Positions 1 through 54,143 of a stretch of DNA of 56,871 bases are shown one piece after another. The position numbers were made by a program, and so were the translations under genes. The first letter of the stretch is position 1. Every line of letters starts with the position of its first letter. Below the pieces are notes generated by a model. That model saw nothing but the letters and a program-made list of their open reading frames with translations, searched no databases and was not told the DNA's origin. Source of the DNA: Minisyncoccota bacterium (lineage in GTDB: Bacteria > Patescibacteriota > Minisyncoccia > Phycocordibacterales > GCA-2747955). The stretch is from contig CALGNJ010000007.1 of assembly GCA_937958705.1 (NCBI GenBank), forward strand, positions 1 through 56,871. Direction: 5' to 3'.

Positions 1-47
1 CCGTACACTTGTACGTCTTGGTGATTTTTTTCTTGTCTCCTTGAACT
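1..47 (+). repeat. Truncated copy (3' half) of an ~85-nt hairpin repeat family; the other copies are at 14717-14800 and 16737-16820 on the opposite strand
   Basis: ccgtacacttgtacgtcttggtgattttt..cttgtctcc aligns with the reverse complement of 14717-14762 (ccgtacatttgtacgacttggtggattttctcttgtctcc). Confidence 0.6.
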
Positions 48-104
48 AATTCTTGTTTAACACTTCTCTTTTTTCAGGAACGCATATTGTGGTGAACTAA
101 ATAA

Positions 105-136
105 ACAAAGCGTGCGTACGCCCGCTTTGTTTGTTA
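105..136 (+). terminator. Intrinsic terminator-like hairpin (acaaagcg/cgctttgt) followed by a T-rich run
   Basis: 8-bp stem with a 10-nt loop, then ttgtt. Confidence 0.45.
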
Positions 137-1376: not shown

Positions 1377-1964
1377 ATGCATTCATTACGATTTGGTGAG
1401 CGAAAGGTTGGTGAGTTTTATCATATCTTCAATAGAGGAAACAACAAACGAGAGACTTTTCTTGATGTCCAAGACATAGAACAATTTGTTTCATTGCTTG
1501 AAAAGAAAAATACAGACAAAAACACAAAGAAGTCTCTAGTCTCGATTATTAGTTTTAGTATTTTAAATAATCATTTTCACCTACTTGCCAGGCAAGAACA
1601 AGAAGGTGGAATACAAACTTTTATGCATCGGATTGGCATTGCCTACACTATGTACTTTAATAAAAAATACGACACAACAGGATCTTTATTCCAAGGTAAG
1701 TATAAATTTGTTCTAGTCCCTCTTGATCAACTACAATCAAAAATAGTATATGTGAATTGTAACCATAAAATTCACAACCTTCAGCCTGTATTTAAAAATA
1801 CCTCAGGAATAGTCTGTCTCAAAGAAAAACAAGAGATATTTCAAGTTAAAGAATCTCTGAATTATTTTGACTCAATTAAACATCTTGAAAAGTACGCCGA
1901 GAGCGAGATCTTACATATACAACATCAACGAAATCAGTCATTGTTGTCTAAAAATGAACTATGA
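1377..1964 (+). CDS. IS200-like Y1 / REP-associated tyrosine transposase (RAYT)-like protein
   Basis: HUH motif NNHFHLL and downstream Tyr motif VYVNCNH. Paralogous to 48226-48882. Bracketed by identical palindromes. Confidence 0.75.
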   Translation: MHSLRFGERKVGEFYHIFNRGNNKRETFLDVQDIEQFVSLLEKKNTDKNTKKSLVSIISFSILNNHFHLLARQEQEGGIQTFMHRIGIAYTMYFNKKYDTTGSLFQGKYKFVLVPLDQLQSKIVYVNCNHKIHNLQPVFKNTSGIVCLKEKQEIFQVKESLNYFDSIKHLEKYAESEILHIQHQRNQSLLSKNEL

Positions 1965-11603: not shown

Positions 11604-12182
11604 TTACTTTTTTAAGCCACGGCCGTGGCTTAAAAAAGTATTTGTTTTAGAAATGCATGCAAATATAGATTCCTCCATCCGTAAACGCCCCGCCACTATT
11701 GCCAATTCATCTCTTATATCTCCCTCAAATAACCAGACAGATTGGTGAAGGTACACACATCCGATTTTCTTTAAGAAATTTCTAAACAAATCTCTTTTAA
11801 CTCTTTGTGTCTCTGGTACATCAAAACTTATAAGAGTACAAATACCTGCCTTTTTGTCTCTTTGTTGAATAGTCATGACAATATCCAAGCCAAAAGCTTG
11901 ACCGAGTTGTTTGCCGTACTTGGTAAGTCTCACTGATTTCTTATCCCCTGATTCACAAAATTCTATAATCCCTTTCTGTACTAATCTCGGCAAAAGTCCG
12001 TAGTAAATATTATCTCTTTTAGGAGGCTTATTCTTATATTTTATTGGTCCAAATGAGGAAAATAAACCAGGAGTTAATACCGCTAAAGTCATTACCCCAC
12101 TCACTAGTAATATTTTAATCAGCACTCTCTCAGCAATACCCAAACGATCAACTTTCTCTAATATAAAATCTAAATTATCCAT
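11604..12182 (-). CDS. PaaX-C/Cas2-fold domain protein with an N-terminal TM helix and a wHTH-like segment
   Basis: CTLISFDVPETQRVKRDLFRNFLKKIGCVYLHQSVWLF resembles the Cas2/PaaX_C beta-alpha-beta core. The last 12 codons lie inside a palindrome. Confidence 0.6.
   Translation of the reverse strand: MDNLDFILEKVDRLGIAERVLIKILLVSGVMTLAVLTPGLFSSFGPIKYKNKPPKRDNIYYGLLPRLVQKGIIEFCESGDKKSVRLTKYGKQLGQAFGLDIVMTIQQRDKKAGICTLISFDVPETQRVKRDLFRNFLKKIGCVYLHQSVWLFEGDIRDELAIVAGRLRMEESIFACISKTNTFLSHGRGLKK
11605..11640. repeat. 36-bp perfect palindrome TACTTTTTTAAGCCACGG/CCGTGGCTTAAAAAAGTA (copy 1)
   Basis: Read directly from the sequence. It overlaps the 3' end of the 11604-12182 ORF. Confidence 0.9.
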
Positions 12183-12236: not shown

Positions 12237-12272
12237 TACTTTTTTAAGCCACAGCCGTGGTTTAAAAAAGTA
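12237..12272. repeat. Second copy of the 36-bp palindrome (2 substitutions)
   Basis: tacttttttaagccacAgccgtggTttaaaaaagta, 55 nt upstream of the same ORF. Confidence 0.9.
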
Positions 12273-12295
12273 TCTTGCCGGATATATAAAAAACA

Positions 12296-13046: not shown

Positions 13047-14201
13047 TTAATTGATTATTCCTCCTCCGATACACTGAGCATCTTTGTATAGAACGATTGA
13101 TTGCCCTTTTGCTACTGCATTGTGAGGTCTGTCGAAAGTCACTACGTATTTCTTTTTACCGCAGCTTCGTCCAATGTGTGAAAATGTAACTGTGCACCCA
13201 ATAAGTTCACCTCGATACCGAATACGGCCCTCATATTTCACATCCTCCTCTGGCTCACCTGAGATCCAGTTAGTATCTGTAATTTTGATTTCGTTTGAAT
13301 ACTCTTTATTTGATTCTTCAAGTAATGCTTTGGGACCAACGGTAATTGTATTTGCTTCTTGGTCACGGTCTGTCACATATAGTTTTGGCATGTCGGGTGT
13401 TTTTGCTTTTGGGAAAATCTCAAATCCGTGCCTCTCTCCTTTGGTATAAAATAGTGCTCCATCGTGTGACCCAATCACTTCTCCCTTTTCGTTTAAAACA
13501 TTTCCTGGATTTTTGTCTATAAATTCTTGTAAGAAATCTTTCATTCTTACTTTACCCACAAAACACAAACCCTGAGAATCTTTCTTGCCTGCGGTAAATA
13601 AATCATATTTTTCTGCAATTTTTCGAACCTTTGATTTTGGGTATGCACCAATTGGAAATAATACTTTGGCCAGCTTGTCTTGCGGCATGGTGTACAAAAA
13701 GTATGTTTGATCTTTATTGTCATCGTTTCCTTTATGCATTTCAAACAGCCCTGTCTTATTGTTAAAAATATTTCTTGAATAGTGGCCTGTCGCGACGTAA
13801 TCAGCACCGTTTTTTAATGCAAAATCTAAGAACCCACCAAACTTTACGTACTTGTTACAAAACACATCTGGGTTTGGTGTCTCTCCTTTTTTATACGTAT
13901 CAATCATGTAGTCAAATACTTCTTGTTTGTATTCTTTCTCAAGATCTAGGTCCAGAAATGGGACATCTAATTTTTGACATACTGCCAGTGCATCAAGTCG
14001 TTCGTCGCGCCAGTCGCACCCGAGAAAATCTGGATGATATACCTTGATAAACACACCCGTTACGTCAAACCCAGCATCTTTGAGCAGTGCCAAAGAAACT
14101 GAACTATCTACTCCACCTGAAACACCCACAAAGACTTTCTTAACAGTTCCGTCTTTGTTTTTGGGGTTTGGGATATAGTTTTTTGGTTTGTTCCAAAACA
14201 T
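13047..14201 (-). CDS. mnmA: tRNA 2-thiouridine(34) synthase MnmA
   Basis: VGVSGGVDSSVS PP-loop and DSQGLCF. ATG at 14201 preferred; the upstream ORF extension crosses a terminator hairpin. Confidence 0.92.
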   Translation of the reverse strand: MFWNKPKNYIPNPKNKDGTVKKVFVGVSGGVDSSVSLALLKDAGFDVTGVFIKVYHPDFLGCDWRDERLDALAVCQKLDVPFLDLDLEKEYKQEVFDYMIDTYKKGETPNPDVFCNKYVKFGGFLDFALKNGADYVATGHYSRNIFNNKTGLFEMHKGNDDNKDQTYFLYTMPQDKLAKVLFPIGAYPKSKVRKIAEKYDLFTAGKKDSQGLCFVGKVRMKDFLQEFIDKNPGNVLNEKGEVIGSHDGALFYTKGERHGFEIFPKAKTPDMPKLYVTDRDQEANTITVGPKALLEESNKEYSNEIKITDTNWISGEPEEDVKYEGRIRYRGELIGCTVTFSHIGRSCGKKKYVVTFDRPHNAVAKGQSIVLYKDAQCIGGGIIN

Positions 14202-14211
14202 GGTGGGATTA

Positions 14212-14240
14212 TAGCAAAAGAGCGACGCTGCGCGTCGCCC
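14212..14240 (-). terminator. Intrinsic terminator (gcgacg/cgtcgc) downstream of the 14245-14484 ORF
   Basis: GC stem followed on the minus strand by tcttttgct. Confidence 0.55.
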
Positions 14241-14244
14241 CTTC

Positions 14245-14484
14245 TCATACTGCTTGCTCCTGCCTAAGATATTTAATATTAAGCTTGCTGATGGATTCTG
14301 CTCTTTTGATAAGTCCGCAGTTAATCCAATCAATCATCTCTTGATGTTTTTCATGGCTAGATTTTGTCATATCCATGGTTAATTTTCCACCAAATATGAT
14401 GGCGCTCTCACGATCTTTTCCAGCCACCAACTGAACCATAGCCACCTGGTCTAAGCCACAATACTCAAAGATGAATTCAAACAT
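14245..14484 (-). CDS. Hypothetical small protein
   Basis: ORF followed by a terminator. No recognisable motif. Confidence 0.4.
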   Translation of the reverse strand: MFEFIFEYCGLDQVAMVQLVAGKDRESAIIFGGKLTMDMTKSSHEKHQEMIDWINCGLIKRAESISKLNIKYLRQEQAV

Positions 14485-14507
14485 CTTTGCATTACTTCGC
14501 TCGGATT

Positions 14508-14609
14508 CTATACTTCACTCTTTGAAAGAAGAGTGCCGGCCTCACACCTGCTTGAAAGATCAAGAAGGACATCTTTTTGCTTACTCATTATCTCTTTAAG
14601 TGTATACAT
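14508..14609 (-). CDS. Possible 33-aa micro-ORF (MYTLKEIMSKQKDVLLDLSSRCEAGTLLSKSEV)
   Basis: aaggag SD 7 nt upstream of the ATG and a TATAAT-like box upstream. The region also folds into two hairpins, so it may be RNA instead. Confidence 0.25.
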   Translation of the reverse strand: MYTLKEIMSKQKDVLLDLSSRCEAGTLLSKSEV

Positions 14610-14716
14610 GTTTTACTCCTTTTGTTGCTTCAAATTTTATTATACAACAAACTTGTGAAAAAACAATATCTATGTTTTCTATTTGTATCGATCTAAATTT
14701 CTTAAATGAGATGTAT

Positions 14717-14800
14717 TTCGAGGAGACAAGAGAAAATCCACCAAGTCGTACAAATGTACGGTGAAGGTGGATTTTCTCGAAGGCAACAAAGAAAGACGCT
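14717..14800 (-). repeat. ~85-nt hairpin repeat, copy 2, immediately 3' of the pepA stop
   Basis: 13-bp outer stem (14730-14742/14766-14778) enclosing the cgtacaaatgtacg hairpin. About 80% identical to 16737-16820. Confidence 0.8.
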
Positions 14801-14812
14801 CATTTTAGGGAT

Positions 14813-16189
14813 TTATCTATAGTTTTTTACGAATTCTACGAGTAATCGTACCGGCTCTCCTGTCGCACCCTTCTCTAAGTGGTCATGTCCTGATGATTCC
14901 ATCCGAGGAGCAATATCTAAGTGAACCCAGTCAGTCTTCTTCAGGTCTTTAGCAAACTCAGCCAAGAACATACCTGCTGTAATACAACCTCCATATCGTG
15001 TCTTTCCAATATTCATAATATCCGCAAATGGAGCTTTGATGTCAGCTTCAAATTCTTCCCATGTAGGAAGCGGCCATACGTAATCTCCGACTTTCTCACC
15101 TACTGTTCTGAATGTGTCTTCAAGCTCTCGGTTCTTTGTCATGACTACAGAAGCTTTGTCTCCAACCGCCACTAGTGATGCACCTGTAAGAGTTGCCATA
15201 TCAACAAGAATCTTTGGATTGTATCGCTTGGCGTATGTGATTGAATCTGCAAGAACCAATCTTCCCTCTGCATCAGTGTTACCTATTTGGACCGTACGTC
15301 CTGACATTGACTTAATGATGTCTCCCGGCCGGTATGATGCTCCTGAAATCGCATTTTCTACTGCTGGAACAATAGCAATAATATTTTTCTTTACACCTAG
15401 TTTCACTAGCGCTTGGAGTGCAGAAAGTGCAACTGCTCCCCCTGTCATATCCATCGCCATTTCATCCATTGATTTCCCTGGCTTGAGGTTCAGGCCTCCT
15501 GTATCAAATGTGATTCCTTTTCCAAGAAGTACAATTGGTCGTGCTGTCTTGGCACCCCCTTTGTATTCCACGATAATAAATTTTGATTTCTCAACCGACC
15601 CCTGCCCTACTGCGAGAAACAAATTCATCTTAAGTTTCTTTGCATCTACTTCTTCAAAAACTTTTACGCGAACATTTTTTACTCCTTTAAACATCTTCTT
15701 TGCTTCGCCAGCAAGAATAGATGGTGTCATCCGTCCTCCTGGTGCATTAGCAAGATCTCGTGCATGGTTAACACTCCTGGCTACGAGCTCTCCTTCTTTT
15801 GCAGCTTTTTTGTAAGAAGGCTGCAGTCGCCCCACTATTTGAAACTCTTTGATATTGGGTTTTTTCTCGGACATGAATTTGTCATATCGATACTGTCCAA
15901 TAATAAGGTTGCTTGTCAGTAGGTGTGCTTTCTCTTCTTTGGAGGTGTCAGCAACATCAAATTTTGCAATATCTGCAAATGCGATACACACTTTTTCAAT
16001 TTTATGTGACTTCGCACGCTCCACAATAGAACGCACAAGTGTGATATATCCGCGACGTGAGTATTCTTTTTCAACCTTAAAATTCAAATATAACTTTGAT
16101 TTTGCATCTGACTTTTTGTCAGAATCTTTCGTATATAAATTGATTTGTCTGAATCCTTTCTTGGGTGTCTCTTGATACGTAATTTTCAT
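14813..16189 (-). CDS. pepA: Leucyl aminopeptidase (M17)
   Basis: GKGITFDTGGLNLKPG and NTDAEGRLVLAD motifs. Confidence 0.93.
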   Translation of the reverse strand: MKITYQETPKKGFRQINLYTKDSDKKSDAKSKLYLNFKVEKEYSRRGYITLVRSIVERAKSHKIEKVCIAFADIAKFDVADTSKEEKAHLLTSNLIIGQYRYDKFMSEKKPNIKEFQIVGRLQPSYKKAAKEGELVARSVNHARDLANAPGGRMTPSILAGEAKKMFKGVKNVRVKVFEEVDAKKLKMNLFLAVGQGSVEKSKFIIVEYKGGAKTARPIVLLGKGITFDTGGLNLKPGKSMDEMAMDMTGGAVALSALQALVKLGVKKNIIAIVPAVENAISGASYRPGDIIKSMSGRTVQIGNTDAEGRLVLADSITYAKRYNPKILVDMATLTGASLVAVGDKASVVMTKNRELEDTFRTVGEKVGDYVWPLPTWEEFEADIKAPFADIMNIGKTRYGGCITAGMFLAEFAKDLKKTDWVHLDIAPRMESSGHDHLEKGATGEPVRLLVEFVKNYR

Positions 16190-16225
16190 AATTTTTTCTA
16201 ATTTGGTAGTAATCCGGAAGTCTCC

Positions 16226-16639
16226 CTAGAATAACATTTTTCCTAAAACGAATATAATGATCCAAGCACTTGTAGAAACAAGTCCGCTGATCATAAGTAC
16301 CTGCTTCTCTTTTCTTGATAACTCCTTAAATGGTTTTTCAAAAGAAAGATGCATATGTTTACCAATCAGATATGCATTAATAACTAACATGGCTACAAAA
16401 AACATCTTTGTGCCAAATACATAATTTTTAAAGAGTGCCTCGGTTCCATATCCGTAGGCCATATACCCGCCCGTGAGGATCATCCCGACAAGACCAATAG
16501 ATACAAGCCAGTGTAATACTGTAAAAAGTTTCTTTGAAAGTTGTTGCTTTCTTCCAAGCAGCCAAAGTAGTCCGTTAAAGTCTGAAAAAATAATGACTAA
16601 GATTGTAAGAGATAAAATTGTGAGATGGATAGTTAACAT
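16226..16639 (-). CDS. Membrane protein (4 TM), unknown function
   Basis: ATG at 16639 lies downstream of a terminator. The longer tracked ORF runs through non-coding elements. Confidence 0.6.
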   Translation of the reverse strand: MLTIHLTILSLTILVIIFSDFNGLLWLLGRKQQLSKKLFTVLHWLVSIGLVGMILTGGYMAYGYGTEALFKNYVFGTKMFFVAMLVINAYLIGKHMHLSFEKPFKELSRKEKQVLMISGLVSTSAWIIIFVLGKMLF

Positions 16640-16653
16640 AAAATTATTGTAAC

Positions 16654-16684
16654 AAAAGGGTGACGCGCAAGCGTCACCCTTTTG
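16654..16684 (-). terminator. Intrinsic terminator after msrAB plus repeat
   Basis: aaaagggtgacgc/gcgtcaccctttt 13-bp stem. Confidence 0.8.
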
Positions 16685-16736
16685 TCTTTCTAGATTATTC
16701 GTAATGGAGTGTCTGTAGAGGAAAAAAGAGATAAAG

Positions 16737-16820
16737 TTCGAGGAGATAAGGGAGAATCTACGGAGTCGTACAAATGTACGGTGAGGTAGATTTTCTCGAC
16801 GGCGCCAAAGAAATTTGCTC
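16737..16820 (-). repeat. ~85-nt hairpin repeat, copy 3, immediately 3' of the msrAB stop
   Basis: Same architecture as 14717-14800, with stem changes ccacc:ggtgg to ctac:gtag. Confidence 0.8.
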
Positions 16821-16824
16821 TTTT

Positions 16825-17979
16825 TTACTCTACAAACTGGATGTAATCGGCATAACCTGCAGCTTCCATCTCTTCGAGCGGAATAAAAGTCATTGCGGCA
16901 CCATTCATACACCACCTCTGCCCTGTTGATGGTGTACCATCCTCATTGAATCTGGGCCCGTCATTAAATACATGTCCAATATGATTATCACCATATTTCG
17001 ACCTAACCTCTGTCCTGGCAATAAGTAACTTCCTATCAGTCTTAGTCACAATAAAATCTTGTGAAATTGGCCGGACAAACGATGGCCATCCTGTCCCTGA
17101 ATCAAATTTGTCTTTAGAGGAATATAGAGGCTCTCCTGACAACACATCAACAAAAATCCCCGCCCTCTTCTCATCATCCAGGTTCCCTGGAGTAAACGGT
17201 CTCTCTGTTCCTTCTTTTTGTGTAACCTTATACTCTAACTCTGACAACTGTCCTCTCAATTCTTTATCTGAAGGTTTCTGGTATCCTGACCATGGATTAT
17301 CTACTAATCCGTCTGGAATAACCTCAAAATCTTCACGCTCTCCCCACACTGAATTAATATATTTGTCACGTCCTGAACCTTTTCTGTATGTCTTATATCG
17401 AAGCGAGTTCTTTTTGTAATAATCTTGGTGATAATCTTCTGCAACCCAAAATTTGGCGTCTCTCTCAACTGCAGTAACAATTGGTTTTGGGAATACGTTA
17501 TCGTCTGTAAGTTGTTTGATCACTTGCCATGCAATTTGCTCTTCTTGATCGTTTTGTGGATAGATAGCTGACGTGTACGAATGCCCTCTGTCAAAGAATG
17601 ACCCTCCCGCGTCTGTTGGATCATGATGTCGGAAGAAATATTCAACTAAATCTTGATATGAGATCACGCTCGGATCGTACTGAACCTCAACAGCTTCTCT
17701 GTGGTCTGCATGATTCTGATAACTTGGGTTATCAGTCTCGCCTCCCATATATCCAGAGATCACAGCCTTAATTCCAGCAAACTTTTCAAAGTCTGACTCC
17801 ACACACCAAAAGCACCCTCCAGCGAAATATGCAGTCTTGATGCCTTCTGGGACCGCTCTCTGTGTCGTTGTTGGTGACGTTGCTCGCATATATGTGTTTA
17901 ATAAAACCCACCCTACAAATACTATAAGTAGCAGTATGAATAATGATATATATGGTTTTTGCATAAGTAGGTTTTTCAT
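16825..17979 (-). CDS. msrAB: Membrane-anchored bifunctional peptide-methionine (S)/(R)-S-oxide reductase MsrA-MsrB
   Basis: N-terminal TM anchor, GGCFWC (MsrA), and GTGWPSF plus HIGHVFNDGP (MsrB). Confidence 0.92.
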   Translation of the reverse strand: MKNLLMQKPYISLFILLLIVFVGWVLLNTYMRATSPTTTQRAVPEGIKTAYFAGGCFWCVESDFEKFAGIKAVISGYMGGETDNPSYQNHADHREAVEVQYDPSVISYQDLVEYFFRHHDPTDAGGSFFDRGHSYTSAIYPQNDQEEQIAWQVIKQLTDDNVFPKPIVTAVERDAKFWVAEDYHQDYYKKNSLRYKTYRKGSGRDKYINSVWGEREDFEVIPDGLVDNPWSGYQKPSDKELRGQLSELEYKVTQKEGTERPFTPGNLDDEKRAGIFVDVLSGEPLYSSKDKFDSGTGWPSFVRPISQDFIVTKTDRKLLIARTEVRSKYGDNHIGHVFNDGPRFNEDGTPSTGQRWCMNGAAMTFIPLEEMEAAGYADYIQFVE

Positions 17980-32932: not shown

Positions 32933-33019
32933 GGAAGTATGGCAGAGCGGTTGAATGCACTGGTCTTGAAAACCAGAGTGTCAGAAATGGCACCGGGGGT
33001 TCGAATCCCTCTACTTCCG
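32933..33019 (+). tRNA. tRNA-Ser (anticodon TGA)
   Basis: Acceptor ggaagta/tacttcc, anticodon loop CTTGAAA, long variable arm and T-loop GGTTCGAATCC. Confidence 0.9.
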
Positions 33020-33030
33020 CTAAGTACCAA

Positions 33031-33056
33031 AAGCACCGCACACGCGGTGTCTTTTG
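33031..33056 (+). terminator. Terminator after tRNA-Ser
   Basis: caccgc/gcggtg stem followed by cttttgtt. Confidence 0.6.
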
Positions 33057-33184
33057 TTGTATTTAGAAGAAGATAGAGAGATTCGAAAGCCGGAAGCGGT
33101 ATACAAGACGAATGAAGTGAGTACTTGTCGCTGAGGTCGGGGAGGAAGCCCTTAACAAGCTGGGTGAGTTTAGGAACTTGACCC

Positions 33185-33203
33185 CGAATCCCTCTACTTC
33201 CGC
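33185..33203 (+). repeat. Exact 19-nt duplicate of the tRNA-Ser(TGA) 3' end (cgaatccctctacttccgc)
   Basis: Identical to 33002-33020, but lacks the 5' T-stem strand, so it is not a tRNA. Confidence 0.85.
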
Positions 33204-33253
33204 ACAAAAGAAAAAACACTCAATTGGGTGTATTTTCTTTTGTGCGGAAGTAG
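33194..33253. repeat. 21-bp perfect-stem hairpin built from the tRNA-3'-end-like sequence
   Basis: ctacttccgcacaaaagaaaa (33194-33214) is the exact reverse complement of 33233-33253. Confidence 0.85.
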
Positions 33254-33516
33254 AAGAAAACAAACTGCTTTGTTTTCGTGGGATTCGCACCACCAGAGTA
33301 TTTCTATTTTTATGTTCATATGCACTCACTAAAAATTAGGTCAACCAGCGGAGCCATAAGTCACGTAGTGACTAGGCGAGCTGCGTCCAGATGTCCTTAA
33401 TAAAACACGAGCGAATGCGAAGTTTTTATTTACAAACAACGGGATCAATCCCTCTTGTTCGTGTCTTGTCAGGTCCACAGACGTTTTTAAAAATCACCGA
33501 GAGGTGTTTTTATTTA
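33254..33516 (+). ncRNA. Candidate structured non-coding transcript (unidentified) bounded by two terminator-type hairpins
   Basis: No credible ORF. Several local hairpins (gtcac-gta-gtgac; ggga-tcaa-tccc). Ends in aaaaatcacc-gaga-ggtgttttt. Confidence 0.25.
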
Positions 33517-41013: not shown

Positions 41014-41562
41014 TTATCCCAGGTTAACGTCGTATGTTTTTACGTTTTTTGCACCACACGATGCAAGGACCGACCTAACATCATCTGACTTAGAGTCTTC
41101 GTCTGAAACTGCGACTAACACGTCTCCTGAGAGGACTCTGTCTTCGTACTCTTTTGTCTCCTCGATATCAAAACTCCATGAGTACAAAGCTCCGATTAAT
41201 GAACCTGTTACCGCTCCTACCGCTGATGATCCTGCTGTTGCTCCTACCGCAGCTGATGCTGCTAGTGTAGCTGCAAAAGATCCTCCTGCCAATACTGGGC
41301 CAACTACTGGTGCAGCGACCGCGACGGCGGCAATACCTGCAACTGCTCCGAGTGCCGCACCTCTGTGTGCTCCTTTTTCTGCACCTTCTTTTACAGTATC
41401 TTGTGTAATATCTTCTACATCAACTTCGTTGATTTCTCCCTCTGTATTTTTGTACAGATAAGAAATCTTATCATTTTCAATTTTATATTCCATGTGTAGC
41501 AGATTGATTGCTTTTTCAGCCTGTTCTCGTGTTGTGAATGTTGATAATGTAATTGTCTTCAT
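41014..41562 (-). CDS. Hypothetical protein with a Gly/Ala-rich hydrophobic core (general-stress YflT/DUF1269-like)
   Basis: Soluble N- and C-terminal domains flank a GA-rich segment. Confidence 0.5.
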   Translation of the reverse strand: MKTITLSTFTTREQAEKAINLLHMEYKIENDKISYLYKNTEGEINEVDVEDITQDTVKEGAEKGAHRGAALGAVAGIAAVAVAAPVVGPVLAGGSFAATLAASAAVGATAGSSAVGAVTGSLIGALYSWSFDIEETKEYEDRVLSGDVLVAVSDEDSKSDDVRSVLASCGAKNVKTYDVNLG

Positions 41563-51037: not shown

Positions 51038-53857
51038 TTATTGCTGTTGTAAGAGATGTATAGCTTCTTGTAGCTCTTTAATTTCTTTTTGTTGCTGTTT
51101 TGTTACTTCAAGTAATGGGACAACCAACTGCGCATAGTCGACAGCCTTATACCCATCACTACCAGTCACTACCGCTTCGGGATAGAGAGCTTCTACCTCT
51201 TGGGCGATCACTCCAAAATCTTTCTCACCAGAATCTTTCCAGAAGAACTCGTAAGTACCTACATCCATAATGTCTCGTGCACGATTTGCAAAGCTAGCAA
51301 ATCTGGTCTTAAGCCGTCTGTCAGAAGAGTAGATAAATGCATCAGCAGAAGCATCACCGTCTACATCAAGTTCGTATGATGCCGAAGTTGCCCCAATCGC
51401 AACATTATCACCATCTATATAAGTTGTTGCACCTCCATCTGTCCACAAGCCAGAACCTGATAATAAAGGTCCTAGGTCGACTGTCTGTGCCACCTCACCA
51501 TCATCTTCGAGAGAAAGAGAAAGTGTGTTTCCAGAAAGAGAGAAAGAGTCAATTGTTTGATCATCAGAACCAGCGCTTGAGAATAAACTCGATAAATCAA
51601 CTGGTGTTCCATCTCCTGTTAATGAAAGCGTTGAGCCAGAGAGAGACAGATCTTGCGCATCAGTATTATCTAATAACGAAGCGAGCGAGACTGTCTGTGC
51701 CACCTCACCATCATCTTCGAGAGAAAGAGAAAGTGTGTTTCCAGAAAGAGAGAAAGAGTCAATTGTTTGATCATCAGAACCAGCACCTCCTGCTACTGCT
51801 GTTGCAATATCATTCGCTGTTGAACAATTAGTTCCATTCTGATCACAATATTCTGTGGCTCCGACTCCTCCCTCAATGTCGAGCCTTAGGGTTCCATCTG
51901 GAGTTGGGTCTCCGATTCCAACAGAACCACTAGACTCAATCACAAATTCAGGTCCATTTCCATTTGCTAACGAAAAAGAGTTATTAATCTTGTACGAATC
52001 GTCAGTCCCATCAATCCCAGCTGACCAGAATCTTGCAGCTGCTCCTGTTCCGGTTCGATACAGAGAAGAAGCATCTCTAGTTCCTGTATTATCATTTGTG
52101 TATGCGTAAAATCGTGAAGATAATGTGGTTCCTACAGCATCCACACTAACAGTTGACCCGTCATTAGAATAGAAGCTCGTAGCACTACCATTAAACGAGA
52201 AGGCTAAATTATTATCAGAGAAAAATTGTAAAACACCACTACTACTTTGGCGGATTCCCGTGTCTGAATCACCAAAAGCAAGGGCCTTCCCATTATCAAA
52301 TGTGTTTGCTGGGATTGCCCCGATTCCAACAGAACCTCCGGAAATATATAGGTCTGAGGCATCGTCTAGCGTTAAGTCGAGTCTTGACCCTCCGTTACCC
52401 CACCCTAAATATCCACCTCGTGAACCTGAAGCATCTGTAAAGTTTATATATCCATAATTACTTTCACTTGAAGATCTGGAAAATATCTGTCCATCTGTTC
52501 CACTCAGCACAACATTACCGTCTATCAAAATACCCCCGTCAAATATACCGGCGCCTGATGCTCCAAGAGTTCCAACTCCTGCGATATTATTTCCGTTCAT
52601 ATTCAAGTTTTGTGTTGCTGTGTGATTTCCTAAATCATCCCCAGATGCTGCATTTGCAATCTGAGCTGCAGTTGAACAGTTTAGTCCTGATCCGTCACAA
52701 TAGCTTGTTGCAGCAATATTTCCTGCAACATCTAAGAGTGCACCTCCATCTGGGTCTACATCCCCAATACCTACAGCACCTCCAGTTATATAAAATATGT
52801 CTGCAGTATCTAGTCGCAAATCAAGCCTGTCAGCACCATTACCAAACCCAATATACCCACCCCTATCTTCAGTACTATCTAAAAAGTTTAAATACCCATA
52901 AGTCGACGGGTTCTGGGACTGCACCCATATTCGATCTCCAGTTCCACTCACGACAACTCGATTATTATCAGCAACAAGACCTCCTTGTGCTCGTACCGGT
53001 CCTGTTGTAACAAGACTCAATGCTCCAAGAATTGCGTTACCATTTAAATCAAGAGATTGTGTTGCTATATGATTTCCTAAATTGTCTGCAGAAACAGCTG
53101 CAGAGCTAAAACAGTTTAATCCATCCTGATCACAATACTGAAACGCACCGACCCGCCCTGCAACATCTAGTCGTAGTCCGGGAGATGAGCTTGTAGCACC
53201 AATAGCTACATTCCCTGAGGATCTATACACATTCCCTGAGCTCTCTGACCAGAACCCTATATCTCCAGTTGGTGGATTTGCATCAGTCACGACCGTATCT
53301 GCCGTAAAACAATTTGTCCCGTTCTCATCACAGTACTCCGTTGCTCCAACTAATCCCTCAACATCAAGCTGGAGCCCAGCACTCGGAGTAATGTTTGCCC
53401 CCACCCCCACTTGTCCATTTGCTTGTATCAGAAAACGACTAGCAGGCGTAGTCCCAGTAGTAAACACAAAGTCACCTGAGTCGCCTGTATTCCTAAAAGA
53501 AAAGGTATTCCCCGTAGTATTATTAATATTTGGTGATCCTGTACCGAAAAAGTTTATTTCAAAGGCATTTGCCCCATCTGTATTAATATTTAAACGATTA
53601 TTGAACGTGGTTGTACCCTGAAAAATAGAACCTCCATTGACAATCAGTGATCCGAGAGAAATACCCCCTGTCTTTACTTGTCCGGTGGCAGAATCGTTTA
53701 ATGGAGGATTAGTATTGCCCCCTGGAGCTGCTTGTGTTGGGTTATTCCATGCAGCCTGTATAACCGATGCTCCCGACAAAGCAGCCATCAATACAATTGC
53801 TATCCCAACAGCCGGCTTGATTGTTTGCTTTAGAAGTGTATTTGTGAGGGTATTCAT
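51038..53857 (-). CDS. Large secreted tail-fibre-like protein with a C-terminal peptidase-S74 intramolecular chaperone domain
   Basis: Signal peptide after Met at 53857, four YCDxxGxNC modules, DDQTIDSFSLSGNTLSLSLEDDG repeats and a C-terminal SDRRLK...GVIAQEVE...VDY..L motif. Confidence 0.85.
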   Translation of the reverse strand: MNTLTNTLLKQTIKPAVGIAIVLMAALSGASVIQAAWNNPTQAAPGGNTNPPLNDSATGQVKTGGISLGSLIVNGGSIFQGTTTFNNRLNINTDGANAFEINFFGTGSPNINNTTGNTFSFRNTGDSGDFVFTTGTTPASRFLIQANGQVGVGANITPSAGLQLDVEGLVGATEYCDENGTNCFTADTVVTDANPPTGDIGFWSESSGNVYRSSGNVAIGATSSSPGLRLDVAGRVGAFQYCDQDGLNCFSSAAVSADNLGNHIATQSLDLNGNAILGALSLVTTGPVRAQGGLVADNNRVVVSGTGDRIWVQSQNPSTYGYLNFLDSTEDRGGYIGFGNGADRLDLRLDTADIFYITGGAVGIGDVDPDGGALLDVAGNIAATSYCDGSGLNCSTAAQIANAASGDDLGNHTATQNLNMNGNNIAGVGTLGASGAGIFDGGILIDGNVVLSGTDGQIFSRSSSESNYGYINFTDASGSRGGYLGWGNGGSRLDLTLDDASDLYISGGSVGIGAIPANTFDNGKALAFGDSDTGIRQSSSGVLQFFSDNNLAFSFNGSATSFYSNDGSTVSVDAVGTTLSSRFYAYTNDNTGTRDASSLYRTGTGAAARFWSAGIDGTDDSYKINNSFSLANGNGPEFVIESSGSVGIGDPTPDGTLRLDIEGGVGATEYCDQNGTNCSTANDIATAVAGGAGSDDQTIDSFSLSGNTLSLSLEDDGEVAQTVSLASLLDNTDAQDLSLSGSTLSLTGDGTPVDLSSLFSSAGSDDQTIDSFSLSGNTLSLSLEDDGEVAQTVDLGPLLSGSGLWTDGGATTYIDGDNVAIGATSASYELDVDGDASADAFIYSSDRRLKTRFASFANRARDIMDVGTYEFFWKDSGEKDFGVIAQEVEALYPEAVVTGSDGYKAVDYAQLVVPLLEVTKQQQKEIKELQEAIHLLQQQ
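51479..51574. repeat. 96-bp exact repeat unit 1 inside the tail-fibre-like gene
   Basis: Identical to 51689-51784, period 210 bp, in frame. Confidence 0.9.
51689..51784. repeat. 96-bp exact repeat unit 2
   Basis: Identical to 51479-51574. Confidence 0.9.
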
Positions 53858-54143
53858 GATGTAGAAAAAACTAACGAGAATCAGGCGCATAACATAACTA
53901 GTAGGTATACTGCCGATTTGTAATATGTATTTTATAATACGTTTTTTAAAGTTTGTTTGCAATACAAAGGGTGAGTAACTACCTACATAACCCTGTCAGA
54001 AAATGAATTGTATTTTTTATAAAAATTGATATGATGTATCTATAGTTACGTTCACCTTTTGGTGGGCGTTTCTCTTTATCACTCAAAGAAAATGGTGCGA
54101 AGGCTTTGCCTTCGCACCCACATAACAATATAAATATAGAACC

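What the first reader, a model, noticed from the sequence alone, without database searches (positions are those of the whole stretch)
14717..16820. ~85-nt structured repeat family placed between stop codon and terminator, with compensatory stem changes
Three copies are visible.
- 14717-14800, right after the pepA stop.
- 16737-16820, right after the msrAB stop and followed by a canonical terminator.
- A truncated copy at 1-47 on the other strand, also followed by a terminator hairpin.

Each copy has an outer stem enclosing an inner CGTAC-N4-GTACG hairpin. The outer stem differs between copies in a paired manner: ccacc:ggtgg, ctac:gtag and cacc:ggtg.

That pattern argues for selection on structure, whether RNA or ssDNA. 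The copies are all in the same orientation relative to the upstream gene. Possible roles are a 3'-UTR stabiliser, a REP/BIME-like element that may serve as substrate for the RAYT genes, or a MITE.
Basis: seen in the sequence. Interest (0 to 1): 0.65.

Follow-up and report, generated by a model that had tools for sequence, protein, structure and literature searches.

The report
Strand-specific hairpin repeats after stop codons
A candidate-phyla-radiation bacterium carries a previously uncatalogued family of about 120-base hairpin repeats that sit directly after the ends of genes, have come and gone between close relatives, and yet keep one strand's fold under selection.

Summary
Copies A (14694-14815), B (16714-16834) and a window-truncated copy C (1-~66, other strand) are one family. 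No Rfam family matches it.

The window comes from a Patescibacteria (CPR) genome. A covariance model found 12 full copies at 8 independent sites in the window and in related contigs. Each folds into one long rod: outer inverted repeats, GAGGAGAYAAG, a free-sequence 10-14 bp stem, a GAG/UGA internal loop and an apical YGUAY/RUACR hairpin. Stems covary: 85% of cells are paired, against 33-48% for slid controls.

The family behaves as mobile. Sites are occupied or empty among relatives, one copy has an internal deletion, subtypes are swapped at one site, and one copy is an in-frame 39-aa insertion in MnmA. It is also constrained: one orthologous copy is 87.5% identical where third codon positions are saturated.

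The better-folding strand is always antisense to the gene it follows (12 of 12; 54 G-U against 3 A-C). This argues against a plain 3'-UTR stabiliser.

The one RAYT-like gene is not flanked by copies. A 250-nt relative in Oscillospiraceae MAGs duplicates terminator hairpins on insertion.

Best reading: a new RPE/MITE-like hairpin element that acts as a folded single strand. The mechanism is unresolved.

The parts
14694..14815 (+). Copy A, full imperfect palindrome. Its gene-proximal arm overlaps the pepA stop codon at 14813-14815.
   Evidence: RNA fold is -46.0 kcal/mol on + against -36.8 on the reverse complement. Coordinates.
14709..14801 (+). Copy A core as matched by covariance model R1.
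   Evidence: 102.7 bits, E about 1e-23.
14717..14730 (+). Copy A 5' conserved strand TTCGAGGAGACAAG. GAC pairs with GGC of the 3' strand, and the last G opens the main stem.
14730..14778 (+). Copy A main stem (GAGAAAATCCACC / GGTGGATTTTCTC) enclosing the AAG/UGAA internal loop and the apical hairpin TCGTAC-AAAT-GTACGG (14746-14761).
14779..14791 (+). Copy A 3' conserved strand GAAGGCAACAAAG.
16714..16834 (+). Copy B, full imperfect palindrome. Its outer arm ACTCTACA plus T-run covers the last codons and the stop of msrAB.
   Evidence: Fold is -49.2 on + against -39.4 on the reverse complement. Coordinates.
16729..16820 (+). Copy B core as matched by R1.
   Evidence: 89.7 bits.
1..66 (-). Copy C, cut by the window edge. 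Only the 5' arm, the GGAGACAAG strand, the 5' half of the main stem and the apical hairpin are present. By synteny it follows rplT, which lies just outside the window.
   Evidence: R1 gives 32.9 bits, truncated at the 3' end. Complete orthologues occur after the rplT stop in L025 and L032.
14813..16189 (-). pepA (M17 leucyl aminopeptidase), the host gene whose stop abuts copy A.
   Evidence: NCBIfam NF002074, 424 bits.
16825..17979 (-). msrAB fusion, the host gene whose stop abuts copy B.
   Evidence: TIGR00401 and TIGR00357 domains.
16654..16683 (.). Bidirectional intrinsic terminator (AAAA-GGGTGACGCGCAAGCGTCACCC-TTTT) lying after copy B in the msrAB sense direction. It is orthologous to the only terminator present in relatives that lack the element.
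103..132 (.). Terminator-like hairpin lying after copy C in the rplT sense direction.
1377..1964 (+). RAYT-like Y1 (IS200-type) transposase gene. It is a candidate mobilising enzyme only, and no link to the element is shown.
   Evidence: Pfam PF01797 at 30.8 bits. NCBIfam REP_Tyr_transpos at 19.9 bits against a cut-off of 80. Present at the same site in L032 and absent there in L025-L027. No element copy flanks it.

Best explanation
The three copies belong to a family of non-coding imperfect palindromes in a Patescibacteria (CPR) lineage. The core is about 95 nt and the full element about 120-135 nt.

Anatomy. Each copy folds into one long rod made of:
- lineage-specific outer inverted repeats with A/T runs that reach into the stop codon;
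- a 3-bp helix between two conserved purine-rich strands (GAGGAGAYAAG and GMMGNYRACRAAG);
- a 10-14 bp stem of free sequence;
- a GAG/UGA internal loop, read as tandem G-A/A-G plus a G-U pair;
- a 5-6 bp apical helix YGUAY/RUACR capped by 4-6 nt.

Shown:
- The family turns over like a non-autonomous mobile element, with gain, loss, subtype replacement, internal deletion and one in-frame insertion inside mnmA.
- Copies end up within a few nucleotides of the 3' end of a gene (protein or tRNA), usually between the stop codon and the intrinsic terminator.
- The strand that folds best is always antisense to that gene.
- At least some copies are then held under purifying selection.

Inferred: the active form is a folded single strand of that polarity. 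RNA is slightly more likely than ssDNA or cDNA. I infer that a trans-acting factor recognises the conserved loops and apical hairpin and moves or maintains the element.

It works like Rickettsia palindromic elements, MITEs or SPRITE, but no known family claims it. The mobilising enzyme and any benefit to the host remain unknown.
For: Family and structure:
- Covariance model R1 finds 12 full copies plus the truncated C.
- 85.2% of cells are paired, against 33-48% for slid controls. 22 of 30 pairs carry double changes. The covariation score is 0.523 against 0.11-0.17 for slid controls.
- There is no Rfam match at gathering or E-value thresholds.

Mobility:
- pepA site: full in the window and L022, core deleted in L017, plain terminator in L018, L019 and L020, nothing in L024.
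- msrAB site: subtype I in the window, subtype II in L017 and L022, absent in L018 and L019.
- rplT site: occupied in the window, L025 and L032, empty in L026 and L027.
- A 39-aa in-frame insertion in MnmA occurs in L018, L019 and L021 only.

Strand specificity:
- The + strand is more stable in 12 of 12 copies, with mean ddG of -14 kcal/mol (Wilcoxon p = 0.0005).
- There are 54 G-U pairs against 3 A-C mismatches.

Orientation and position:
- 13 of 13 strong copies at 8 independent sites are antisense to the abutting gene.
- Cores start 3-17 nt from the stop codon or tRNA end.

Constraint in place:
- Between L017 and L022 the msrAB-site copy is 87.5% identical, while third codon positions of the neighbouring genes are 47-53.5% identical.
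- All 7 stem substitutions between these two copies keep + strand pairing.
- The three rplT-site orthologues have apical helices CGUAC/GUACG, CAUAU/AUAUG and UGUAC/GUACA.

Distant relatives:
- The same module occurs in a 250-nt multi-copy element of Oscillospiraceae MAGs.
- That element is flanked by 24-31 bp duplications of a terminator hairpin.
Against: - No transposase, reverse transcriptase or autonomous parent element has been linked to the family.
- No consistent target-site duplication is seen for the short form. TA flanks some copies only.
- In-place purifying selection is not expected for purely selfish DNA and points to a host-level role.
- No promoter-like site precedes the + strand. 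A bidirectional terminator lies just upstream in that direction, so expression of a + strand RNA is unproven.
- Copy numbers per genome are unknown, because the window's genome and its close relatives are available only as fragments.
- Apparent compensatory changes in a DNA palindrome could in principle come from template-switch correction. That process would not, however, produce the G-U excess on one strand.
Confidence: 0.45

Rival explanations
1. An independent small antisense RNA gene family. The + strand is transcribed as a hairpin RNA of about 95-110 nt that ends at its own U-run just before the stop codon of the convergent gene. It acts as an sRNA, a protein-binding RNA or an antisense terminator. 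Copies multiplied by duplication or mobility but are host genes now.
For: - G-U pairs and tandem G-A motifs lie on the + strand only.
- A T-run of 4-6 follows the + strand core in nine clade copies, against 3 on the gene-sense side in six of the nine.
- Sequence is conserved in place where neutral sites are saturated.
- The architecture is conserved across phyla.
Against: - No promoter-like site lies upstream.
- A bidirectional terminator lies 30-55 nt upstream in the + direction in most copies.
- One copy lies inside the mnmA reading frame.
- Copies are lost or gutted in close relatives.
Confidence: 0.25
2. A cis-acting 3'-UTR structure of the host mRNA, serving as a stabiliser against 3' exonucleases or as a helper or replacement terminator. 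It would be transcribed with the upstream gene.
For: - Copies lie between the stop codon and the terminator, so they are transcribed with the gene.
- Copy A has no other terminator behind pepA, whereas relatives have a plain terminator there.
- The outer arms resemble this genome's standard AAAAAGAGC...GCTCTTTTT terminators.
Against: - The mRNA-sense strand is the worse-folding strand in 12 of 12 copies. It carries C-A mismatches where the other strand has G-U.
- The terminator scan does not call A or B on either strand.
- Copies also follow tRNA genes and one sits inside an ORF.
- A conserved core is not needed for a stabiliser.
Confidence: 0.12
3. A REP/REPIN-type element mobilised as single-stranded DNA by the RAYT-like Y1 transposase encoded at 1377-1964.
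For: - A Y1_Tnp gene is present in the window and in relative L032, both of which carry the element.
- A strand-specific hairpin with G-T pairs and no clear target duplication fits HUH enzymes.
- The gene is lineage-specific at its site.
Against: - The gene is not flanked by copies in the window or in L032.
- It scores 19.9 bits against a cut-off of 80 for the NCBIfam RAYT model.
- L025 carries the element but lacks the gene at that site.
- There is no GTAG or CGTC tag, and the elements are AT-rich and about 120 nt.
- Copy C has the opposite strand orientation to A and B within one stretch of uniform GC skew.
Confidence: 0.12
4. Nothing special: ordinary terminators or recent local duplications of flanking DNA.
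For: - A/T-run outer arms are present.
- A and B lie only 2 kb apart.
Against: - Flanks are unrelated, and copies occur at 8 sites in several genomes and in other phyla.
- The core motif is conserved and the stems covary.
Confidence: 0.02

Closest known systems
Rickettsia palindromic elements (RPE)
   Same: - Size is similar. RPEs are about 105-146 bp according to the review PMC3184786.
- Both are imperfect palindromes that fold into a long hairpin.
- Both are multi-copy with no transposase of their own.
- Both occur in intergenic DNA and as in-frame insertions inside protein genes. Here that is a 39-aa insertion in MnmA.
   Different: - The host is a different phylum, and sequence similarity to RPEs was not tested.
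- Here most copies sit exactly after stop codons or tRNA ends.
- Here orientation is always antisense and one strand's fold is demonstrably favoured.
- Here the internal core, rather than the ends, is the conserved part across distant taxa.
Bacterial MITEs and terminator-like repeats (Correia/CREE, ERIC, RUP, SPRITE)
   Same: - Both are short, non-coding and bounded by terminal inverted repeats.
- Both show occupied and empty sites between close relatives.
- Both are located in transcribed 3' regions.
- SPRITE is likewise terminator-like and about 105 bp (PMC3184786).
   Different: - No related insertion sequence with the same ends is known.
- The target-site duplication is not consistent.
- In classical MITEs the ends are conserved and the interior drifts. 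Here the interior motifs are conserved from CPR to Oscillospiraceae while the arms differ between lineages.
REP/REPIN elements with RAYT (Y1) transposases
   Same: - Both are hairpin repeats at gene 3' ends that act as single strands.
- A RAYT-like gene is present in the window.
   Different: - The RAYT-like gene is not flanked by the repeats.
- There is no GTAG or CGTC tag (the REP classes of PMC3733652).
- The element is one long rod of about 120 nt, not a GC-rich 20-40 nt palindrome or a REP doublet.
Integron attC sites
   Same: This is a resemblance in how it works only.
- Both are imperfect palindromes of 57-141 nt that start at or over the stop codon of the upstream ORF.
- In both, structure rather than sequence is conserved.
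- In both, the strand that folds and acts is the one antisense to the ORF.

These attC properties are from my own knowledge.
   Different: - No RYYYAAC/GTTRRRY core sites were seen by eye.
- No integrase or cassette array is present.
- The host genes are syntenic housekeeping genes and tRNAs.
Intrinsic (Rho-independent) terminators
   Same: - Both are hairpins flanked by A and T runs directly downstream of genes.
- Copy A replaces the plain terminator that relatives have after pepA.
   Different: - The rod is about 50 bp long with conserved internal loops.
- The terminator scan does not call it.
- A separate canonical terminator follows most copies.

Membership tests
Any Rfam 15 family | Covariance-model score at or above the family's gathering threshold. 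| tested here: not met
   Only tRNAs reach threshold in the window. Nothing relevant appears at E up to 5-10 around A and B. The ylbH leader scores 24.5 bits against a gathering score of 50, driven by the terminator plus a generic hairpin. The long form has no match either.
REP/REPIN-RAYT | A short (20-40 nt) GC-rich imperfect palindrome with a conserved GTAG or CGTC tag at one end. | tested here: not met
   The elements are 120-135 nt and 32-51% GC. No conserved tetranucleotide tag is seen at either end in the alignment.
REP/REPIN-RAYT | A RAYT gene flanked by its cognate repeats. | tested here: not met
   The covariance model finds no copy next to the Y1_Tnp gene in the window (1377-1964) or in L032 (1669-2256).
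REP/REPIN-RAYT | The protein meets the RAYT family model. | tested here: inconclusive
   Pfam Y1_Tnp scores 30.8 bits, above its cut-off of 23. NCBIfam REP_Tyr_transpos scores 19.9 bits, far below its cut-off of 80.
MITE | Short, non-coding, with terminal inverted repeats. | tested here: met
   The outer arms ARATTTCTTAAATG...CATTTTAGGRATYT are shared by clade copies, and no conserved ORF is present.
MITE | A fixed-length direct target-site duplication. | tested here: inconclusive
   TA flanks winA, L022 and the mnmA copy, but not winB, L014 or L017. The long form has 24-31 bp hairpin duplications.
MITE | A parent insertion sequence with the same ends encoding the transposase. | not testable with these tools
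   Only fragments of the genomes are held. None was seen in about 300 kb of related loci.
MITE / mobile repeat in general | Occupied and empty sites among close relatives. | tested here: met
   Seen at the pepA, msrAB, rplT and mnmA sites and at the site upstream of pepA.
Rickettsia palindromic elements | In-frame insertion of the palindrome into protein-coding genes. | tested here: met
   MnmA of L018, L019 and L021 carries a 39-aa insertion that coincides with a 59-bit model hit.
Rickettsia palindromic elements | Sequence homology to RPE-1 to RPE-8. | not tested
   No RPE sequences were at hand. Homology is unlikely given the phylum.
Integron attC | R''/R' core sites (RYYYAAC / GTTRRRY) and an associated IntI integrase. 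| tested here: not met
   No such boxes appear at the element ends on inspection. No integrase is present among the window ORFs scanned.
Intrinsic terminator | A short GC-rich stem directly followed by a T-run. | tested here: not met
   The terminator scan of 14300-17000 calls neither A nor B on either strand.

The most novel reading that the evidence does not exclude
The short CPR elements and the 250-nt Oscillospiraceae elements may be two forms of one new class of mobile structured nucleic acid, a hairpin RNA or ssDNA module. On this reading the module homes to gene 3' ends and terminator hairpins by a mechanism not yet described. The evidence for that is the long form's duplication of whole terminator hairpins, the outer arms that mirror the last codons of the host gene, and the strict antisense polarity. 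On this reading the module is also retained by the host for a function at gene ends.
Probability: 0.2. Interest if true: 0.85.

Novelty: new variant of a known kind. Interest (0 to 1): 0.6.

Why it matters
CPR bacteria have tiny genomes with very little non-coding DNA, so a 120-nt element kept after several housekeeping genes needs an explanation.

The family gives three things:
- a structured motif with strong covariation that is absent from Rfam;
- an example outside Rickettsia of palindromic elements inserted in frame into an essential enzyme;
- an unusual, testable signature. The selected fold belongs to the strand the host gene does not transcribe. That points either to unrecognised antisense RNAs or to a single-stranded DNA step in mobility.

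The related Oscillospiraceae element duplicates terminator hairpins on insertion, which hints at a targeting mechanism worth dissecting.

Tried and rejected
- Rfam searches at gathering and permissive thresholds found nothing. The ylbH-leader near-hit was rejected after reading its alignment.
- Mini-ORF or Shine-Dalgarno reading of GGAGA...GGTGA: no start codon or frame is conserved (by eye).
- Cop-box (TACAnnTGTA) reading of the apical hairpin: it holds only for loops of the A..T type, not for the family.
- K-turn: there is no 3-nt bulge.
- Hammerhead and other known ribozymes: no core motifs and no Rfam hit.
- Insertion into the loop of a pre-existing terminator: rejected, because the outer arms are homologous between copies at different sites and the ancestral msrAB terminator is still present downstream.
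- Replication-strand explanation of orientation: copy C is opposite to A and B within uniformly negative GC skew. This is not fully excluded if a terminus lies at the window edge.
- Viral-contig scans with three patterns gave either nothing or chance matches without the stem.
- The weak model hit at 41414-41486 (21 bits) lacks the main stem and is treated as chance.
- The exact-product look-up for the window's msrAB found nothing. The window's own genome is not in the collections.
- Literature searches found no description of such elements in CPR.
Full report
**1. Observation**

The sequences at 14717-14800 and 16737-16820, and the reverse complement of 1-47, are clearly related.
- The repeat finder pairs them (D6, D10 and I1).
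- A 21-nt core string occurs exactly twice, against none in 100 shuffles.

The flanking genes are on the minus strand.
- pepA, an M17 leucyl aminopeptidase, lies at 14813-16189.
- An msrA-msrB fusion lies at 16825-17979.

Folding shows that each element is longer than reported.
- It is one rod-like imperfect palindrome, 14694-14815 for A and 16714-16834 for B.
- The gene-proximal arm overlaps the stop codon.
- Copy B is followed, in the msrAB sense direction, by a canonical bidirectional terminator at 16654-16683.
- Copy C is followed by a hairpin at 103-132.

**2. Where the window comes from, and more copies**

pepA and rnhB homologues are named Minisyncoccia, Parcubacteria or Patescibacteria, and the window is 40% GC. 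It is a CPR genome that is not itself in the collections.

An exact-pattern scan of 185,579 species genomes found the module only in three uncultured Oscillospiraceae MAGs, with nine copies in one of them. The metagenome scan added two short-form loci, L014 with two copies and L015.

I fetched syntenic contigs of relatives through pepA, rnhB and the Y1 transposase. I then searched everything with a covariance model built from six copies.

The model finds 12 full copies plus the truncated C.
- Window: A scores 102.7 bits, B 89.7 bits, and C is truncated.
- L017 and L022 each have a copy after msrAB.
- L022 (identical in L023) has a copy after pepA.
- L018 (identical in L021) has a degenerate copy after a 105-aa ORF.
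- L018, L019 and L021 have a copy inside mnmA.
- L025 and L032 each have a copy after rplT. These are the orthologues of C.
- L014 has copies after tRNA-Cys and tRNA-Ser, and L015 has one after ndk.

A filters-off scan of the window finds no other convincing copy.

**3. Anatomy**

From 5' to 3' on the better-folding strand, the element consists of:
- outer inverted repeats, ARATTTCTTAAATG...CATTTTAGGRATYT in the window's clade and different in L014 and L015;
- a closing helix;
- the strand GAGGAGAYAAG, whose GAC/GAU forms a 3-bp helix with GNC of the 3' strand;
- a 10-14 bp stem of free sequence;
- GAG, opposite UGA on the other side of the loop, read as tandem G-A/A-G plus a G-U pair;
- a 5-6 bp apical helix YGUAY/RUACR with a loop of 4-6 nt;
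- the strand GMMGNYRACRAAG.

Two core subtypes coexist in the clade.
- Subtype I is GAGGAGAYAAG...UCGUAC-N4-GUACGG. It is found in window copies A, B and C.
- Subtype II is GCGGAAGYAAR...ACGUAU-N5-AUACGU.

**4. Is the structure more than chance?**

On the model-based alignment of 11 copies:
- 85.2% of cells pair, against 33-48% when partners are slid by 1-3 columns and 65.7% in shuffles;
- 22 of 30 pairs show changes on both sides;
- the covariation score is 0.523, against 0.11-0.17 for slid controls.

One caveat applies. The alignment was fitted to the structure, and palindromic DNA can mimic covariation.

Two further results do not share that caveat.
- The fold is strand-specific. The element + strand is more stable than its complement in 12 of 12 copies. 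The mean difference is 14 kcal/mol (Wilcoxon p = 0.0005), with 54 G-U pairs against 3 A-C mismatches.
- The common deamination bias on the exposed sense strand would give the opposite pattern.

**5. Turnover**

pepA site:
- The window and L022 have full copies of different subtypes.
- L017, whose PepA is 98% identical to the window's, keeps the outer parts but has lost the central 56 nt between short TTTC repeats.
- L018, L019 and L020 have a plain terminator, and L024 has nothing.

msrAB site:
- The window has subtype I, L017 and L022 have subtype II, and L018 and L019 have only stop plus terminator.
- The subtype swap coincides with a recombination breakpoint. PepA of the window and L017 is 98% identical, but MsrAB is only 87% identical.

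rplT site:
- It is occupied in the window, L025 and L032, and empty in L026 and L027.

mnmA:
- MnmA of L018, L019 and L021 carries an in-frame 39-residue insertion that coincides exactly with a 59-bit model hit.
- The gene-sense strand of the element is pyrimidine-rich. It has half as many stop codons as the other strand, 25 against 52 over 36 frames.

**6. Constraint in place**

Between L017 and L022:
- Third codon positions of msrAB and pepA are 47% and 53.5% identical, which is saturated.
- The msrAB-site element is 87.5% identical over 136 nt, like first and second codon positions.
- Its seven stem substitutions all preserve + strand pairing, including one A-U to G-C double change.

At the rplT site:
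- The first 31 nt of the window and L025 copies are 29/31 identical, although rnhB third positions are 42% identical.
- The apical helix has been rebuilt three times: CGUAC/GUACG, CAUAU/AUAUG and UGUAC/GUACA.

Orthologues are also more alike than paralogues within one genome, 89% against 76%. This speaks against simple within-genome homogenisation.

**7. Position and polarity**

- All 13 strong copies, at 8 independent sites, have the better-folding strand antisense to the gene they abut.
- Cores begin 3-17 nt from the stop codon or tRNA 3' end.
- The outer palindrome overlaps the stop codon or, in L014, the encoded CCA.
- In most copies the host gene's terminator lies 30-55 nt beyond the element, so the host mRNA carries the worse-folding strand.
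- No sigma-70-like promoter precedes the + strand.
- The + strand core is followed by 4-6 T in nine clade copies, against 3 T on the gene-sense side in six of the nine.
- One weak, degenerate copy (27 bits) in the rpmI-rplT spacer of L025 is in the sense orientation.
- GC skew is negative across the whole window. A and B on one side and C on the other therefore differ in replication polarity while agreeing in transcription polarity, unless a terminus lies at the window edge.

**8. The long relative**

In the Oscillospiraceae MAGs the same module (GGAGACAAG, a fully covarying 12-13 bp stem, and CGUAC-N4-GUACG-GU) is one arm of an element of about 250 nt.
- It has a 5' hairpin and a closing helix.
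- It has a conserved helix GUUAAAAUGC/GCAUUUUAAC that encloses a variable insert of about 90 nt.
- Copies within one MAG are nearly identical outside that insert.
- They lie after an upstream gene's terminator in the sense orientation.
- They are flanked on both sides by 24-31 bp copies of that locus-specific hairpin.
- The element matches no Rfam family.

**9. Interpretation**

The combination of turnover, an in-frame ORF insertion and terminal inverted repeats places the family with small palindromic mobile repeats such as RPE, MITEs and SPRITE (PMC3184786).

What sets it apart:
- the interior, not the ends, is conserved across phyla;
- polarity is strictly antisense;
- the fold is selected on one strand only;
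- purifying selection acts at fixed loci.

I therefore favour a mobile hairpin element that acts as a folded single strand of + polarity (confidence 0.45). RNA is somewhat more likely than ssDNA because of the many G-U pairs, the tandem G-A motif and the U-run.

The rivals are:
- a bona fide antisense small-RNA gene family (0.25);
- a host 3'-UTR structure (0.12), contradicted by the strand asymmetry;
- a REP/RAYT system (0.12). The window has a single weak Y1_Tnp gene at 1377-1964, and that gene is not flanked by copies in the window or in L032.

Which enzyme moves the element, and what it does for the host, were not determined.

**10. Verdict**

The element is a new family, and an unusual variant, of bacterial palindromic repeats.

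Noticed in passing
window 33002-33254: The 3' end of tRNA-Ser(tga) (CGAATCCCTCTACTTCCGC) is duplicated 183 nt downstream. The second copy runs straight into a 62-nt near-perfect palindrome (33193-33254) whose arms include the tRNA acceptor 3' strand. It looks like an att-type scar of a small insertion at the tRNA end. The model gives it only 15 bits.
   Followed up: partly
window 11605-11641 and 12237-12273 (also 2879-2913): Two 95%-identical 37-nt palindromes (TACTTTTTTAAGCCACGGCCGTGGCTTAAAAAAGTAT) bracket the 192-aa gene 11604-12182. That gene has a PaaX/Cas2-like domain. A weaker third copy lies at 2879-2913.
   Followed up: no
window 1377-1964: A RAYT-like Y1 transposase gene is inserted between truB and rnhB on the opposite strand. 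It is present at the same site in L032 (77% identity). In relatives L025-L027 the site is either empty or holds an unrelated gene.
   Followed up: yes
L001, L003-L011 (MAG CAKTIN01), L006, L012: A non-coding element of about 250 nt in Oscillospiraceae MAGs shares the hairpin module. It is flanked by 24-31 bp duplications of the local terminator hairpin and contains a variable insert of about 90 nt between conserved helices. No Rfam match was found.
   Followed up: partly
L025 11440-11585; window 16714-16721 with 16827-16834; L015 325-460: The arm of the palindrome far from the gene mirrors the last codons plus stop of the host gene. In L025 AAGGAAGTATC lies opposite AAGGAAGGATA of rplT. In copy B TGTAGAG lies opposite CTCTACA of msrAB. 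The arm is therefore either selected to extend the helix or is made by an inverted target copy.
   Followed up: partly
window 14813-17979 compared with L017: PepA of the window and L017 is 98% identical, with third positions 87% identical. The adjacent MsrAB is only 87% identical, with third positions 55% identical. This implies a recombination breakpoint between the two genes.
   Followed up: no
L025 11563-12303, L027 11248-11961: Ribosomal protein L20 (rplT) in this clade is 237-246 aa. It has a long lysine- and glutamate-rich linker and a C-terminal helix-hairpin-helix domain. The L026 protein is 174 aa and lacks that domain.
   Followed up: no
window 16620-16660 and orthologous sites in L017-L019: The conserved motif TTTTGTTACAAT overlaps the T-run of the msrAB terminator. 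It lies 8-9 nt before the ATG of the next gene, which suggests a -10 box driving a leaderless or near-leaderless mRNA.
   Followed up: no
window 51461-51784: A 114-nt direct repeat (93% identity, spacing 210) lies inside the 974-aa ORF 51038-53962.
   Followed up: no
L025 12351-12442: This is the only sense-oriented candidate copy (27 bits, main stem degenerate). It lies in an unusually long rpmI-rplT spacer.
   Followed up: no
window 13047-14333: The longest mnmA ORF (TTG start, 428 aa) has a 44-residue N-terminal extension that is absent from all relatives. The real start is probably the ATG that aligns with MFWNKPKNY.
   Followed up: no
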